A stretch of DNA of 64,000 nt from Eledone cirrhosa. Lineage: Eukaryota. Position numbers and translations under genes: made by a program. Of this stretch, positions 17,559 to 34,906 are shown one piece after another. Positions within the stretch are counted from its first letter, which is position 1, and every line of letters begins with the position of its first letter. The notes under the pieces are model-generated. The model was given only the letters and a program-made list of their open reading frames with translations, searched no databases and was not told the DNA's origin. The stretch covers positions 74,586,001 to 74,650,000 of the forward strand of contig OZ024741.1 in the NCBI GenBank assembly GCA_964016885.1, read 5' to 3'.

Positions 17559-18227
17559 CTAGCAAAAAACCACCCTCGGATGGTTTTCTGCTAGCATGTG
17601 TAGTGTGCATATTGATATTATATATACGCAGGTATATACATCAAATAAAATTGTAATTGACAATATATAATACATAGAAATTGAACGAAGGCTGTGTTAC
17701 AGTCTTATTTAATCAGTAACGTAATCCATGATACATTAAAAAAGACGATATTATATATAAACTGCATTAGGAGAAAATTAGTGACAGAAAATTAGTATAT
17801 TTATTTAAGCGATGGCCAACCGGAAGTGTTGACATTTCAGAATTTTAAAGAAGTGAATCTTTAAATAAACAAAATATATTTAATCAACAGCCATGAAATT
17901 TAGTAGATAAATTATGTAATATTCATTCATTATTTATTCAAAGTAAGGGCGGTGGATTGGCAGTATCGGTAGAGGGTCGGCCGCCATGCTTTCCAGCATA
18001 GTTACGTCCCTTTACGATCTGAGTTCAAATCTCGCTGAGGTTGACTTTGCCTTTCATCCTTACGGGGTCGATAAAATAAAGTACCAGTAATGCTCTGGGT
18101 AATTGCTGGCCTTGTGCCTAAAGTAGAAACAATTATTTATTCAAAGTAATGCAACTTATTTTACTAATGGGAAAAAAAATGACAAACCGTACACAGTCCT
18201 GCACTCCTTACTTTATTATAGTTTAGA
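17559..18227 (-). mobile_element. Non-autonomous Helitron
   Basis: Minus strand begins TCTAAACTATAATAAAG and ends with hairpin AAAACCATCCGAGGGTGGTTTT then CTAG. It sits between A and T of the host RTE coding sequence with no TSD. Confidence 0.85.
17947..18131 (+). mobile_element. SINE S1, full length with 18-bp TSD
   Basis: A-box-like GGATTGGCAG..CGG, B-box GAGTTCAAATC; TSD ATTATTTATTCAAAGTAA at 17929-17946 and 18132-18149. Confidence 0.93.
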
Positions 18228-18972
18228 TTCCTCTATAGTTGCTCCTTTCTAGGGCATCACCTTTGTCTTTGTAGCAATTTATGATGATTACATTGCTGTA
18301 CCTGTCATTAGGTATGAGTCCATACTGTACTATCTGATTGACTATGTGGGTTACTAGTCCCCCTCCCCCCACCCAATGCTTTTAGTATCCCAGTAACTAT
18401 GTTTGATGATCCCACAGTTTTATCATTTTTCCTCTCTTTGATTGCTTCTTTGATCCCATAACTGTCAACTTCAATGGCTGGTCTTTCAGGTGAATAGGTT
18501 GGAGGTAATTTCTCTTCTTCCCATTTATTCTGTACATTCATCAGTCTCTCGTAATAAAATTTCTAAGCCTCTTTCTTTTGAGCATCAGTGGTGCTAAATG
18601 CTCTGGTATCATTTCTAACACACTTTTCCCCAACACTTGCAATGCAGAACACTTCCCGTCTCTGATCCTTACATCTTAGGTCATTCCTATCCAGTAAAGC
18701 TTGTATATATACGTTACTTCATTGTTTATAAAATTGGCAATTCAGAACTGATTAAAATCTAAACCAGTTCTGAATGGACAATGATATTGGTTTGATTTGT
18801 TTTAATTTGATTTAACTCAATTTGTTTTAAATTTATGTATTCTGAAATTCTTATTAACTGAGGTTATTTTATAGGATATCCCCCTTTGATCCATGCATGA
18901 CATAAAAATAATATCCCTGATTATAAAATATATATACAGTTGCACACTTATCTCCCTTTAACTACATATTAA

Positions 18973-19070
18973 TTGTTTCTACTTTAGGCACAAGGCCAGC
19001 AAATACCCAGTGCATTACTGGTACTTTATTTTATCGACCCTGTAAGGATGAAAGGCAAAGTCAACCTCAG
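18973..19070 (-). mobile_element. 5'-truncated SINE S1
   Basis: 3' half of S1; TTAACTACAT..TAAT flanks both sides. Confidence 0.85.
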
Positions 19071-19930
19071 CTTAACTACATGTTAATATTCACCAAAATA
19101 AAGTGATGTCAACATTACCCTGAAGAAGAGGATTCCGGAGGCTGAGTGTGTAAATATGTGGGGGTACGCACGCGTGTGTGGTGTTTATACGTATTGTGGA
19201 TGTAGGTGGTGTGTGGGAAAAAAAATGTTTGTGAGTGTATGTCCGTGGGTAAGTTCCTAAGGTAGTTCCGTAGAGGGTGTGGTGGGATGCCGGATATTTT
19301 CCTGGTGATGGAGTTGATTCGTGGGAGCGATGTCCAATGTGTGTAATCCATTGTTGGGTTGGTCGGAAGAGAGGAGATGTGGGGTGCGCGCGCAACAGGA
19401 AGTGGTCAGAAGGTCAAGGCAGGAGGAGGGTTGTGTGTCTGTGTGTGCGGAGAGGTGGTCAGAGGGTCAGGGCATAGCAGCAGTAGGGGAGAATGGCAGG
19501 TGGAGAAAGTCGGTGTGTCAGTGTGTGCGGAGGTGCGGTGGACAGGGGAGAGGACGGGTAGGTGTGAAAGGTGGAGTGGGGAGGGGGTCTGGCGGGGTGT
19601 GTGTATTAGTAGGGTGTTAGTGGGATGTGTGTGTGGAAGGGGTGTGGGTGGAGCGGGGAGAGGGAGAGAAAGGTGTGGGGTACGGTGGAGGGAGTGTAGT
19701 GTACTGGTGTGTGTGTGTGCGTGTTTGGATGAGTGTGTGTGTGGTGAAGGGGGTGTTAGTGGGTATATATATATATATATATTAGAAAGTGAGGTTTTTT
19801 TTTTTTTTTTTTTACAAAATGAAAAATAACCGAGGTGTCCTACACGAGTGAAAGTATAAAGAAAATAAGATGAAATCGAAAATGCAACTGGAGTCTTATT
19901 TAAAATAATATATATATATTTATTTGGTTC

Positions 19931-19966
19931 CTTTACCGGTTTCGCTGTTCTTCTGCTTTTCAAAAG
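19931..19966 (-). ncRNA. Minimal hammerhead, U3:A8 variant (inverted copy, one stem II mismatch)
   Basis: CUU-UUGAAAA-GCAG-AAGAA-CAGC-GAAA-CCGG-UA-AAG on the minus strand. Confidence 0.6.
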
Positions 19967-20146
19967 TAGAGTTGAGATGGAGGGTCTGTGGTTTTTTTCA
20001 CATCTGTGTGTGTGAGTGAGAGAGCATGTGTGTGTGTGTGCATGTGTCTGCAATGAAACAAGCTGAAACCACAGAGCTCTCATTCACAGACGCAAGCACA
20101 CACACACAAATGTGAGAAAAACCACAGACCCTCCATCTCAACTCTA

Positions 20147-20182
20147 CTTTTGAAAAGCAGAAGAACTGCGAAACCGGTAAAG
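20147..20182 (+). ncRNA. Minimal type I hammerhead ribozyme, U3:A8 core variant
   Basis: CUU-UUGAAAA-GCAG-AAGAA-CUGC-GAAA-CCGG-UA-AAG: perfect 4-bp stem II, palindromic ACCGGU stem III, GUA site, AATAAA just downstream. Confidence 0.75.
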
Positions 20183-20246
20183 GAATCAAATAAATATATA
20201 TATTTTTTAAAAAATAAGACTCCAGTTGCATTTTCGATTTCATCTT

Positions 20247-20313
<67 letters not shown>

Positions 20314-21322
20314 TGTGTGTGTGAGTAAGAGAGCATGTGTGTGTGTGTGTGCGTGCATGTGTCTGCAATGAAACAAGCTGAAACCACAGGGATCTCATTC
20401 ACAGACGCACACAAATATATATATTCAGTTGCATCTAAGTGTGACAGCCTCTCGAGCTTTTTTACACGATAAACGTACCCAGTATATGCTGTAAAGTAAT
20501 TGGTGATAGGAAGGGCAGCCAACCATAGAAAGCTTGCCAAACAATGGATAAGAGGACCCTTCAGTCATGTCAAACTTGTGCCTAGAAGTGTATCTATCTA
20601 CCTACTCAACTACCCTTCGCGAATCTGTTTACTTTTACTGTCTTGAGGGGTATTATCCCCAGTTTTATTCTACATATATTATAGTTAATATGAATTGGTT
20701 GCAAAAAACAAAAACTTCCTCTTAAAATATATTTATATACACACACAGACATATATATATATATGTATGCTTACACACTTACACAATATATACATGTAAA
20801 CTGAATAGAAATATTATTTGAAGGAAATCACATATTTCAAAGCAAGTAGCATCATCATTGTCATGAAACAAACATAAATGTATATATTTGTGTTGTTATT
20901 GTTGAGATTATCTGGGTCTAGTAGCATAATAATAACAGTATTCCGTGTTGAAAATAATATACACATACAAAACAACAACAACAAACAAACATGTTTGACA
21001 AAACAAATACACACCATCATTAGACATTAATCTGATTCTCCTAAAGAATATAGAACAAAAGACAGAAAGTGCAGTTAATGAGAAATAGATATTAATAGAC
21101 AATACATATATTAATGGAACAAAGCTAGTTATGTTTTACAAATATAAACTTATATCTGTTGTTGTATGGATCAATAAACAACAGTAGTAGAAAAACAGAA
21201 AAAACATTTAGTTGTTTTTTTGTTTATTATAATATTTTCTCTTAATTTTTATTTTGTTTGTTTGTGTTCCAGCTAATTACTTTATTTGATTAGAATATTT
21301 CTGCCTTTTAGTCTATTTTCAG

Positions 21323-21389: not shown

Positions 21390-22089
21390 GTAAGTGTGGC
21401 TGAAGAGGAGACAGAGAGAGCAATAGCTATCAATAAGGTCATGGGTTGTAAAGAAAGGACTTTGACAATTAATGAATTAGCTGATTAATCAACTAGTTAA
21501 TGGATATTACTTGATGAATAATTGAATAATTGTTTCTAACATAGGCATTAGATCAGTAATTTACAGGTATTTTATTTTATCAACCCTAGAAGGATAAAAA
21601 AAAGCAAAGCTGATCTTGGCAGGATTTGATCTCAGAATATAAAGAGTTATAATTAATTACTACAAAGCATTTTATCTAATGTTCTAATGGTTCCACCAAT
21701 CCACTACTCTAGTTACATGATTAATAATAAAACTGAAGTAAAATTCAATCAGTCTGTGTTGGTGTTGGTGTGATTGACAGCATGACCTGATCAAAATAAT
21801 TAAAATATACTTAAGTCTATAAAATAGAAATCTACTTCAAAGTGGAAGGCTTCAGGCTTTCTTAGGGTTTCCTTTTCTCCAGCTTCCTTCCATTTGGAAA
21901 TTCAGGCACATTTTAACTCAACGATCATATATACGCCAGACATACCCATCTCTCATGCACACTACATTTGATGATTATTGTTTATAAATATGAGATTACA
22001 CACCCAAATAAGCATGCTGGATTCACTTCTTTCTAGCCTTTGCATATTTTCTACTTTTAATACCCATGTCCCACTACCATGTAGCACTG

Positions 22090-22129
<40 letters not shown>

Positions 22130-22136
<7 letters not shown>

Positions 22137-22838
22137 GAATATAAAATGAAAGTGCTTGTTTAAAAAAAAAGGAATTTATTAGGTATTGACATATGTTTCT
22201 GTAACAGACGGAATACCTATGTATCGCTGCTTGCGTAATCATATAATGTTAGCAAGTATTCGATAGCAAATGTATAATCAGTTGTCACTTCTTCAGAGAT
22301 TTTGGATAAATTGGAAAAAATCAGAAAAATTGAAGTATTTATATTAGTTGTAATAGAGCAAGAAGAGAGGGGATAGTATATGACAGATGGTAATTCAATT
22401 TACTGCTAAACAAGTATATAAAAGGTTTCAAATGACCAGCCCTGTCCATTGTTCAATTGGTCAAGTATAGATTAAAATAGGCACTCCCAAAAATTCTTAT
22501 TTAGATAAAATAAACCATTTACTCATTGTATTCTCATTAGAAACCCTTTATATACTTGTTTAGCAGTAAATTGAATTACCATCTGTCATATACTATCCCC
22601 TCTCTTCTTGCTCTATTACAACTAATATAAATACTTCAATTTTTCTGATTTTTTCCAATTTATCCAAAATCTCTGAAGAAGTGACAACTGATTATACATT
22701 TGCTATCGAATACTTGCTAACATTATATGATTATGCAAGCAGCGATACATAGGTATTCCTATTGTTACAGAAACATATGTCAATACCTAATAAATTCCTT
22801 TTTTTTAAAAAAAGCACTTTCATTTTATATTCATCTTT
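22130..22838. repeat. Long inverted repeat (~305-bp arms, ~97-bp spacer)
   Basis: 22130-22436 is the reverse complement of 22534-22838 with few mismatches; the left end abuts (TA)n. Confidence 0.95.
22673..22781 (+). ncRNA. Hammerhead-like motif with ~90-nt stem II (mirror copy at ~22184-22298, minus strand)
   Basis: CUGAAGA-A-GUGACAA...UUGUUAC-A-GAAA-CAUAUG-UC then AATAAA. Stem III is the palindrome ACAUAUGU; no convincing stem I. Confidence 0.45.
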
Positions 22839-22959
22839 TCTACATTTTCTCCGGAATATAATTTATACTTGTTGAGCAAACCTACACGTACGCTGTTCAT
22901 CTCTAACGTAACGATATATTATCACTACATTATTGATAACCTGAAATTTTATATATCGT

Positions 22960-31822: not shown

Positions 31823-34170
31823 AACCAACCGTCCTGATAACTTCGATGTCACGATGGGGTCCAGTGACTCAGCGCAAGCAACTGACCTGGTCGGGATATA
31901 CCTCCTACATAAGCTTAGGGAAGAAATACCGGCCCTACAAGGAGGTGTATATAGGGACGACGCCCTGTTTACCGTTAGGAACCATAGCCCCCGTAGGATA
32001 GAGGACCTTAACAAACATATACACAGGTTCTTTAAGTCATACGGCCTATCCGTAACTATGGACCTCAACCACAGGGTTGTCAACTTCCTGGACGTGACCC
32101 TGGAGTTGAGTACGGGCTTATACAAGCCATACCATAAGCCTCGAGAGTGCCTCTCTTATATTAATTATGCCTCCAACCACCCTAAGCAGACTCTCAACTC
32201 CATAGTCTATAGTATCTCACATAGAATCTCGAGGCTATCCGCCAATGAGGATATCTTCAACCAAGCGGCAGATTACTACAATAGGGCCCTGATAAGCGCC
32301 GGCTTTAACCGAGGAATTTCCTACATCCCTAACGCTAGCTCTAGAAACCACCCCCCTCATAAAACTAACGTTATAGTAAGCCATACCTATAACCGATCAC
32401 GCGGCGACCTCGTTGAAGTCGGATATAATAGAATAGATAACCGCACCAAAGATCACGTCCCCGGTGACGGTGAACACTGTAGATTATTCAAACTATTCCC
32501 CTATTACAAAACCAACAAAGGCGACGGCCTACTACCAACGCCTTCCAACCAGCATCTTCGTGTACATAAATATGGAAGAGGTAGAAAGAGTGCACCCGAG
32601 CATAAAGTGAAAGGGGCACCGAACGGGCGACTGCGCATTAACACACATAAGAGTGGTCACTTAGATGGAAAATCCCATAGCAAAAGTACAAGGACACGTA
32701 ATCGCCACCGTAACGTCCTATGGTTCCACCCCCCTACTCTCAGAGTGTGGCCTCCAACATACCCCGGATGTTCTTCGAAGCCTTAGAGAAGAACTTCCCG
32801 CCCAACCATAGGTATAGACAAATTCTTAATAGGAACAATATAAAAATATCCTTCTCTACTACTCCTAACCTAGCAGACATCATAGGAACAACGAACCACA
32901 GTAAGATCACCAAGACACAGACGCACCTACACCTGACAATAACTATATCGGCCTTAACAACTCCCTGGCAGCATCCAATAGTGTTGGCAACGGCATCCAC
33001 AGACGCAACCAGAATAACCGCAAAATGACTGGGGAACATGCAGAACATGACGTGCGGAATAACAATCGCACCACCCCGCGTGCTGTGGGTTGTAATTGTG
33101 CTAACGACAGCTGCGGTAGCGTAGGTAACAACGTAGGCAGCAACAATGATAGCCTTACCGTGGGAAATAGACGGGACCGCGACAGAAATTGCAACTGCCG
33201 CGACAGAGGACGCTGCCCCCTTAGAGGATACTGCTTGACTGATAGGGTTATATATAGATGCACTATTACTAGCCACAATAGCGTTAAACATTATATAGGC
33301 GCTACCTCCGGCCCGTTCAAAATTAGGTTTCGAACACATCTCCACTCTTTCACAAATAGAAAACTAAGGCACTCCACTTCGCTCGCGGACTACATCACAT
33401 CACTAAAGGACTTAAACATCAGCTTCTCCACGCACTGTGAGATTGTCGGCAGGGCTGCACCGTACAACTTCAAGAGGAAATGCGATCTTTGCCTCATGGA
33501 GCTCTACCACATCATAACTGCACCCCACGAGCTCATCAACAGCAGAGCTGAAACAGCGATAAGTTGTACACATCGCTTAAAAATATCCTTCTTCAGATGG
33601 GTTAAGGATGAAGAGTGAAATAGTACACCGGATCTCCCTGCAACAAGTCTTAACACCCCGGCGGGCAGGCGCTGCAAAATAACACCCAGGAAACAATCCT
33701 TGCATACCAGACCCAGCCTCAGACAAACGGATGCGGCAAAAAAAAAAAAAAACAAAAAAATTTGTCCGGGAAAGACTGCCCCTAACACCGGCCAGAGTTA
33801 CCTCCCTTGACCTGCTGCAAAATCAAAACAAGATATTTTTACGAGCAATGAACCTTGATGTGGATTTAACCCCAAAAACTCTTTCTGAGCAATATAAGGA
33901 ACACTTGTGATTATTTATGCCCTTGAGAAGTCCAACTGGGCGAAACGTACGTAGGTGATATTTTAAATAAACATGTTTTAACGGTCTATTCTCCGATTTT
34001 TTACTTTCCCACGTGCTTACGCTCTGCTAACTCTCTAGCCCACTAAATATTAACACTTCGAATATTTAATACTGCCGGCACTAGTATCGAGCACCTTTGG
34101 CATACGCTACTTGGCAAATAACTATATGTATCACCTATCCCCCCTTATTTTCTCTTTCTCGATACGTAAA
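31823..34170 (+). mobile_element. 5'-truncated Penelope-like element, Naiad-type (RT plus GIY-YIG), two frameshifts
   Basis: FDVTMGS..GVYRDD..VNFLDVT..SNHP in the RT, WFHPPYS..NRNNIKISFS in the linker, and CNCR..CPLRGYCL..VIY..YIG.T..FKIR..H..CDLCLME..LINSRAE..CTH in the endonuclease. Stop at 33618; 3' UTR contains a hammerhead. Confidence 0.92.
33921..33955 (+). ncRNA. Minimal hammerhead, U3:A8 variant, in the PLE 3' pLTR
   Basis: CC-UUGAGAA-GUCC-AACU-GGGC-GAAA-CGUACG-UA-GG with palindromic stem III ACGUACGU; AATAAA ~10 nt downstream. Confidence 0.72.
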
Positions 34171-34311: not shown

Positions 34312-34906
34312 ATATATGTAAGTATGTATGTATACGTACATACATATATGTATACAGACGTACAGTAGCATGCATATATATATATATATATACATACAGG
34401 TACACATACATATATGCACGTATCTGGCAGAAGGGTATACGGTGCTGATGATAGCAAACAATATATATATATATGCATGCTACTGTACGTCTGTATACAT
34501 ATATGTATGTACGTATACATACATACTTACATTTAAGTAAGTGCCGTACTAAGAGTGAGAAATGAAATTTCGTTTTCATTTTATTTCAACTTATCGTTTT
34601 CGGTATGCCTGACCGATTAAACTCACTCGATATGCAAATTAGGCTGCTCAGCCGTTAATTTTCATAAGGAAAGTATATACTTTCGAACGTTCAACTCTCT
34701 GGCAGAAGGGTATACGGTGCTGATGATAGCTAACAAACTTGAAACTAGTACATCGTTCCTGTGTCAGTGTTGAACAAAAAGGTGACGTGGTTGCCTTAAC
34801 AGGGTATGGCATAAATTCAGGCTGTTCAGTTTGTTTACAAACGAACAAAGCGGCGTTATAATAAGCGTCCGCTAAACTGATACGTGCATATATGTATGTG
34901 TACCTG

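What the first reader, a model, noticed from the sequence alone, without database searches (positions are those of the whole stretch)
19931..20182. U3:A8 core hammerhead (UUGAAAA) as a convergently duplicated inverted pair
Seen: an intact minimal fold at 20147-20182 and its mirror at 19931-19966, which has one stem II mismatch, within an A-B-A(inv)-B unit. Known: C3-G8 is a Watson-Crick pair in the active hammerhead and U3-A8 is the compensatory variant, which searches for CUGANGA miss. Inference: this is a genuine variant ribozyme, and a transcript of either strand would carry one ribozyme plus a long dsRNA stem.
Basis: partly seen in the sequence, partly recalled or inferred. Interest (0 to 1): 0.72.

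Follow-up and report, generated by a model that had tools for sequence, protein, structure and literature searches.

The report
Hammerhead in back-to-back Penelope fragments
Both arms of an ordinary back-to-back fragment of a Penelope-type jumping gene carry a predicted self-cutting RNA motif with an already described variant core, the same motif occurs over 10,000 times in this genome, and in this mirror arrangement it is predicted to be locked in a long hairpin and inactive.

Summary
The motif is real: a minimal type I hammerhead with a U3-A8 core at 20147-20182 (+) and a mirror at 19931-19966 (-) with one stem II mismatch. It is not special to this locus. The 36-mer has 10,578 matches genome-wide and lies in the pLTR of a young, intact Penelope-like element (RT + GIY-YIG). 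Sister U3-A8 families show compensatory changes in stems I and II, so the fold is under selection. The two copies point apart, not together. One arm has the 68-nt tail and the other lacks it, as in 29 of 37 pairs: the known Penelope insertion footprint. B is unique host flank DNA copied into the junction. In a read-through transcript the ribozyme is predicted to be buried in the hairpin. Cervera and de la Pena 2014 already report U3-A8 min-HHRs and opposite-strand pairs. New but modest: copies starting at the cleavage site are 2-3.5 times enriched, a hint of cleavage in vivo. The scan earlier noted similar two-armed ends for retrozymes of this genome, but not this sequence.

The parts
19764..19775 (.). 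(TA)n target tract at the 3' end of the left arm
   Evidence: sequence; arm end mapped
19776..20006 (-). Left arm: 5'-truncated pLTR copy from the putative transcription start to the long (tailed) end, positions 264-483 of reference locus L037
   Evidence: blastn, 88% to the L037 reference
19776..19854 (-). Penelope 'tail' (68 nt in the reference, homopolymer run expanded here), present on this arm only
   Evidence: of 121 arms, 33 end exactly at reference position 415 and 51 at 483/484
19931..19966 (-). Minimal type I hammerhead, U3-A8 core, with a private U11.3-to-A change at 19946 that breaks stem II; predicted cut after 19934
   Evidence: the minority letter at this column (A in 2 of 104 arms)
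20007..20109 (+). Spacer B1: copy of unique host flank DNA captured between the two 5' ends, with short shared letters at both joints
   Evidence: a 29-mer of B occurs at only 2 places in G000, both here; alignment
20107..20253 (+). Right arm: tail-less pLTR copy, reference positions about 264-410, with no promoter and no ORF
   Evidence: 95-96% to the L037 reference; 95-99% to the 40 best-scoring genomic copies
20147..20182 (+). Minimal type I hammerhead, U3-A8 core, 3-bp stem I, palindromic stem III; predicted cut after 20179
20254..20314 (.). (CT)n(TA)n(GA)n microsatellite at the 3' end of the right arm
   Evidence: sequence
20315..20416 (+). B2: flank copy of B, inferred to be the original

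Best explanation
This is a promoterless, ORF-less insertion fragment of a young Penelope-like retrotransposon whose pLTR carries a minimal U3-A8 hammerhead motif, and the back-to-back pair likely arose as a by-product of one insertion event, with each ribozyme predicted to be inactive here. Shown: the parent is pLTR-ORF1-RT/GIY-YIG-pLTR, with two hammerheads in direct orientation 4.7-5.0 kb apart; arms end at two fixed sites 68 nt apart, both ending in TATA-like letters joined to (TA)n. Inferred mechanism: the endonuclease nicked both strands of a (TA)n tract. RT primed one cDNA from the long site and one from the short site, both ran to the 5' end of uncleaved RNA, and the two ends were joined by microhomology, here through about 100 nt copied from the right flank (B). 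In the parent RNA the motif would fold only as a dimer through ACCGGU and likely cleaves a small fraction of molecules; most insertions come from uncleaved RNA.
For: Parent: 756-aa ORF with RVT_1 and GIY-YIG matches upstream of the motif. 4 of 5 fetched full-length copies have both ORFs open and all 5 have two direct hammerheads. Copies: 10,578 matches, control 0; 99 of the first 100 read UUGAAAA. Among those 100, 20 divergent pairs and 1 convergent adjacency lie within 5 kb. Of 37 divergent pairs, 29 are long+short, 3 ORF-continuing+short, 4 long+other and 1 short+short. Arms of a pair share the subfamily marker in 22 of 22 cases; in 8 pairs the short arm and in 8 the long arm reaches more than 20 nt further 5', so neither arm is always a fold-back copy of the other. 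Window arms differ by 5 substitutions in about 150 nt and the B copies by 3 in about 90, which fits one age. Fold: 345 matches to other U3-A8 motifs, control 2. In 24 distinct motifs, stem II pairs 2 and 3 hold in 24 of 24 with compensatory types (shifted by one: 0-10 of 24), stem I pairs 1-3 hold in 22, 24 and 19 of 24, and N7 varies. Literature.
Against: No cleavage or RNA evidence. The empty pre-insertion site was not seen, so one event is inferred; two successive insertions with a long target duplication of B remain possible. The window's arms disagree at one common polymorphic site (2 of 26 pairs do). For the window's older subfamily the double hammerhead (-15.5 kcal/mol) is not the predicted minimum (-19.1); it is for the young subfamily with a 4-bp stem I. 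The 24 motifs are a few related families, so the independent compensatory events are few, and the first G-C pair was fixed by my pattern. The RVT_1 score (28.8) is just under Pfam's cut-off (29.6).
Confidence: 0.88

Rival explanations
1. One reading: the inverted pair is a working unit, and a transcript of either strand yields an active ribozyme beside a dsRNA stem.
For: The plus-strand motif is intact; read-through transcription is possible.
Against: The ribozyme is inside the stem, and the antisense arm is made first: MFE -299 kcal/mol, P(stem II) 0.0 on both strands. Neither arm includes the upstream TATA/CCAAT-like region. The left copy has a broken stem II. Such pairs are routine (20 among 100 listed matches).
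Confidence: 0.04
2. Two separate insertions: the right arm inserted first with a long target duplication of B, and the left arm later entered the duplicated (TA)n.
For: B flanks the right arm on both sides; B is unique host DNA; the arms differ at one polymorphic site; a 104-nt host-derived spacer is unusual among 37 pairs, most of which have gaps of 15 nt or less.
Against: The long+short, divergent, same-subfamily layout is that of 29 of 37 pairs; similar divergence of arms and B copies; at about 3.5 matches per Mb a second hit at the same spot is unlikely.
Confidence: 0.1
3. The motif is a conserved but non-cleaving structure, and the excess of 5' ends at the cleavage site is RT stalling at the base of the ACCGGU duplex.
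For: Most arms extend through the intact motif (51 of 104 start at the putative start site and 35 further upstream; a sample biased towards motif-bearing arms). PLE min-HHRs cleave weakly in vitro (PMC4209133). Cleavage is not needed for PAc insertion in vitro and no reads ended at the site (PMC11167929). A stall 3' of stem III would give nearly the same end.
Against: Catalytic letters stay fixed while N7, stems and loops vary; H17 is A, U or C, but G was excluded by my pattern. The PAc hammerhead cleaves with protein. U3-A8 constructs were active in vitro according to PMC3088659.
Confidence: 0.3

Closest known systems
Minimal type I hammerheads in pLTRs of metazoan PLEs, including the U3-A8 variant of Schistosoma mansoni Cercyon (Cervera and de la Pena 2014, PMC4209133; parts 1-2 of 4 read, supplements not seen)
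   Same: pLTR location, palindromic 15.2-16.2 region, dimer-dependent fold, U3-A8 core (about 1,300 hits there), opposite-strand pairs 100-700 bp apart, G10.1-C11.1.
   Different: Here stem II is 4 bp rather than 7-8, stem I is 3-4 bp rather than 4-5, there is no extra base between 9 and 10.1, stem III has a CG insert (like the D. virilis type), and the copies are very uniform and about 8 times more numerous.
Neptune/Nematis-type EN+ Penelope-like elements (Craig et al. 2021, PMC8557442, passages; Arkhipova et al. 2013, PMC3846280, passages)
   Same: C-terminal GIY-YIG, CX4CXXC linker motif, (TA)n targets, inverted 5'-truncated copy, tail at one end only, optional ORF1 separated by a frameshift.
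   Different: The tail is 68 nt, against 30-40 nt described. Clade not placed by phylogeny.
PAc (Poseidon of Anolis; Frangieh et al. 2024, PMC11167929; parts 1-2 of 4 read)
   Same: Two RT start sites that bracket the tail, both strands nicked and extended, AT-rich targets, uncleaved RNA as main template.
   Different: PAc has a C3-G8 core overlapping the ORF start and start sites not homologous to the target. Here the motif is about 170 nt upstream of ORF1 and both ends carry TATA-like letters that match the (TA)n target.
Natural U3-A8 hammerheads (Perreault et al. 2011, PMC3088659, passages)
   Same: Same core covariation, reported in several natural examples and as active in vitro.
   Different: The passage read does not tie them to PLEs.
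Metazoan non-LTR retrozymes (Li et al. 2026, bioRxiv 10.64898/2026.07.22.740005, part 1 of 5; Cervera and de la Pena 2020, PMC7229834, search listing only)
   Same: Type I hammerhead of PLE origin.
   Different: Retrozymes are non-coding tandem arrays; this is a truncated piece of an autonomous element, not in tandem.

Membership tests
Type I minimal hammerhead | Core Y3 U4 G5 A6 N7 R8 A9 / G12 A13 A14 A15.1 / U16.1 H17 with a 3-8 Watson-Crick pair | tested here: met
   U3-A8; N7 varies across families
Type I minimal hammerhead | Stems I and II supported by compensatory change | tested here: met
   24 distinct motifs from a few related families; shifted registers mostly pair worse (stem I pair 4 does not discriminate)
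Type I minimal hammerhead | Palindromic stem III that closes only in a dimer | tested here: met
   ACCGGU pairs between molecules in cofold; 19 of 24 motifs palindromic, but the pattern favoured this
Type I minimal hammerhead | Self-cleavage after H17 | not testable with these tools
   only indirect: 84 vs 39 and 24, and 47 vs 14 and 3, junction counts
Type I minimal hammerhead | Fold attainable in a transcript of this locus | tested here: not met
   predicted P(stem II) 0.0 on both strands
EN+ Penelope-like element (parent) | RT followed by GIY-YIG endonuclease | tested here: met
   (GIY-YIG above cut-off, RVT_1 0.8 bits below)
EN+ Penelope-like element (parent) | Direct pLTRs from partial tandems, inverted truncated copy, tail at one end | tested here: met
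   (L208 has all three repeats)
Neptune/Nematis clades | CX2-5CxxC linker before the EN; (TA)n targeting | tested here: met
   CX4CXXC in the ORF; definition from PMC8557442
Neptune clade | RT phylogeny | not tested
   no named reference proteins fetched
Non-LTR retrozyme | Non-coding tandem units each with a hammerhead | tested here: not met
   only 2 same-strand neighbours within 5 kb among 100 matches; coding parent

The most novel reading that the evidence does not exclude
The hammerhead's ACCGGU palindrome works mainly as an RNA-RNA kissing site that loads two copies of the element RNA on a dimeric RT, so that both nicked strands of the target are primed, one at each end of the tail. That would explain Penelope's head-to-head pairs with overlapping arms, and the excess of copies that begin at the cut site would be a genomic record of dimer-triggered cleavage in vivo.
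Probability: 0.12. Interest if true: 0.7.

Novelty: new member of a known kind. Interest (0 to 1): 0.25.

Why it matters
The locus itself is an ordinary fossil. The family is useful: a young, intact element with more than 10,000 near-identical U3-A8 motifs gives enough junctions to ask whether PLE minimal hammerheads cleave in vivo, which the papers read leave open (PMC4209133 has no in vivo evidence; PMC11167929 found no reads ending at the site). It also lets one test how two-armed insertions form, and warns that the obvious C3-G8 rescue mutant may misfold.

Tried and rejected
Rfam scan: no hammerhead among the 150 listed of 257 matches, only microsatellite-driven miRNA-type hits. Sequencing runs: no RNA holder listed. 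Laying four runs of contigs did not bridge the B-arm junctions because repeats were skipped, so it says nothing on the assembly or an empty allele; a second organism had only 8 contigs on the stretch. Search for a C3-G8 sister of this family: the first 100 rows of each search were dominated by two tandem retrozymes, so none was identified. Core versus flank variation within the family, 0 of 258 against 8 of 1191, is too small to read. ORF1 has no Pfam match at E 0.1. A pure fold-back origin of the short arm was rejected because it reaches further 5' than the long arm in 8 pairs. B as a second repeat family was rejected. An assembly duplication is unlikely because arms and B copies differ. The 2017 RNA Biology paper on small PLE hammerheads cleaving as dimers (recalled) is not held; it and the 2014 supplements may already list this or a related family. 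A search for hammerhead + octopus + Penelope listed 4 papers, none describing this family by title or abstract; 'U3-A8' + hammerhead found only PMC4209133.

Full report
Observation. The plus strand at 20147-20182 reads as a minimal type I hammerhead: 3-bp stem I, core UUGAAAA, 4-bp stem II, GAAA, palindromic ACCGGU and A17 at 20179. The minus strand at 19931-19966 is the same except for an A.A mismatch in stem II. My own scan found no compact fold in 30 shuffles. The arms are 94% complementary and B is duplicated. The copies point away from each other, so 'convergent' is wrong. Rfam listed no hammerhead among 150 shown of 257 matches.

It is a high-copy repeat. A 131-nt query gave 641 candidates, 40 scored, at 95-100% identity. 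The 36-mer with positions 3, 7 and 8 left free has 10,578 matches (control 0); 99 of the 100 listed read UUGAAAA. Among these 100, 20 neighbouring pairs within 5 kb are divergent, 1 convergent and 2 same-strand.

The parent. Sequence upstream of several copies led to a 756-aa ORF with RVT_1 (28.8 bits, cut-off 29.6) and GIY-YIG (27.6, cut-off 22.6) and a CX4CXXC linker. A query from its 5' part gave 1,776 candidates; the 40 scored are about 100% identical, so the family is young. In locus L037 the order is: CCAAT/TATA-like region (read by eye), putative start at 264, hammerhead 304-339, short end 415, long end 483, ATG at 505, a 400-aa ORF1, then the RT-EN frame in -1 with U UUU UUA in register. 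Of five full-length copies fetched, all have two direct hammerheads 4.7-5.0 kb apart and four have both ORFs open; L208 also has an inverted tail-less pLTR. The linker and (TA)n targets fit Neptune/Nematis as defined in PMC8557442 (passages); I did no phylogeny. That the host is a cephalopod is my recall and the wording of earlier notes, not a result.

The inverted pair is the usual insertion footprint. After dropping 14 duplicate loci, 121 arms remained from loci L001-L094 and the window; 33 end exactly at 415 and 51 at 483/484, then (TA)n. Of 37 divergent pairs, 29 join a long and a short arm, as the window does; 3 join a short arm to an ORF-continuing copy. Arms within a pair differ by 2.5% on average against 4.9% between loci and share the main subfamily marker in 22 of 22 pairs; at a second site 24 of 26 agree, and the window is one of the two exceptions. 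Either arm can reach further 5' (8 and 8 pairs), which points to two separate cDNA syntheses. This matches the inverted copy and one-sided tail described for PLEs (PMC8557442, PMC3846280; passages) and the two RT start sites and two-strand priming shown for PAc (PMC11167929, parts 1-2 of 4). What is unusual here is the spacer. B occurs only twice in the genome, so it is host flank DNA copied into the junction. Arms and B copies have diverged about equally, which fits a single event; two events are not excluded.

Is the fold real? Excluding this family's stem II, the U3-A8 pattern still has 345 matches (control 2). Three of 30 such loci hold RT or EN sequence 39-57% identical to the parent. Across 24 distinct motifs (29 of the 30 loci plus the window and L037; L180 dropped as a mutated member of the main family) stem II pairs 2 and 3 hold in 24 of 24 with A-U, C-G, U-G and U-A, A-U types, stem I pairs 1-3 in 22, 24 and 19 of 24, and N7 is U, C or A. 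These are a few related families, so the independent events are few, but the pattern is that of a conserved hammerhead. U3-A8 is therefore a trait of several PLE families here, beside canonical C3-G8 tandem retrozymes.

Does it work here? Folding 19760-20300 gives -299 kcal/mol, with the core paired to the antisense arm at 0.995 or more and stem II at probability 0.0 on both strands. The arms lack the upstream promoter-like region. The pair is thus predicted to silence the ribozyme. For an isolated dimer, the double hammerhead is the predicted minimum for the young subfamily (4-bp stem I) but not for the window's version (-15.5 against -19.1).

Indirect sign of cleavage. Genome-wide, sequence starting right after A17 with three mismatched letters upstream occurs 84 times, against 39 and 24 for control starts 3 and 10 nt upstream. 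TAT-joined starts number 47 at the cut site, against 14 and 3 at two upstream AA sites with the same microhomology (binomial p 3e-5 for 47 vs 14, treating rows as independent, which some are not). Of 20 of the 84 inspected by eye, 15 are true 5' junctions and 5 are internal indels or duplications. Longer control patterns lose some matches to mutation. The excess is under 1% of copies, and RT stalling at the base of stem III would give nearly the same end. I put in vivo cleavage of a minor fraction at about 0.55.

Comparison with what is known. PMC4209133 (parts 1-2 of 4; supplements not seen) reports min-HHRs in pLTRs, a U3-A8 variant with about 1,300 hits in S. mansoni, dual motifs on opposite strands 100-700 bp apart, and weak dimer-dependent cleavage. 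PMC3088659 (passages) reports natural U3-A8 covariation. Both headline features are published; I did not find this family described, but could not see one relevant paper.

Earlier scan notes, read after my reading was fixed, describe two-armed ends for retrozymes of this genome; no look-alike of this sequence was listed. They are unchecked and are not used as support.

Verdict. Real motif, ordinary context: a new member of a known kind. Interest 0.25.

Noticed in passing
L037:505-1707 and L037:1637-1644; L205-L208: The parent has a 400-aa ORF1 (no Pfam match) overlapping the RT-EN frame in -1, with U UUU UUA in register and a weak hairpin (-8.7 kcal/mol) downstream; a likely programmed -1 frameshift. 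PMC8557442 Fig. 1 legend says ORF1 can be separated by a frameshift in PLEs.
   Followed up: partly
window 22124-22845: 312-bp, 97% inverted repeat beside a (TA)n tract, whose arm end resembles this element's short end; probably another head-to-head PLE-type insertion.
   Followed up: no
window 34720-34750 (+): A canonical C3-G8 minimal hammerhead-like motif of another family.
   Followed up: no
window 31854-32615 (+): Distant RT fragment, 22% identical to the parent RT, E 3.5e-5.
   Followed up: no
window 18034-18135 and 18970-19071; 21527-21599: Copies of a short interspersed repeat in opposite orientations; recalled as a common cephalopod repeat.
   Followed up: no
L095-L124 and L145-L174: Two tandem C3-G8 retrozyme-like families, units of about 466 and 310 bp; the patterns gave 9,559 and 18,996 matches in all, not all from these families. 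Arrays are often divergent two-armed.
   Followed up: partly
L139/L140 and L135/L136: Pairs in which both arms begin exactly at the predicted cut site; in L139/L140 a retrozyme piece lies between them.
   Followed up: partly
L009, L003, L016 upstream of the hammerhead: The parent's 3' UTR holds about 150-bp tandem repeats with CACGTG and CCAAT-like boxes in variable number, upstream of the putative promoter.
   Followed up: no
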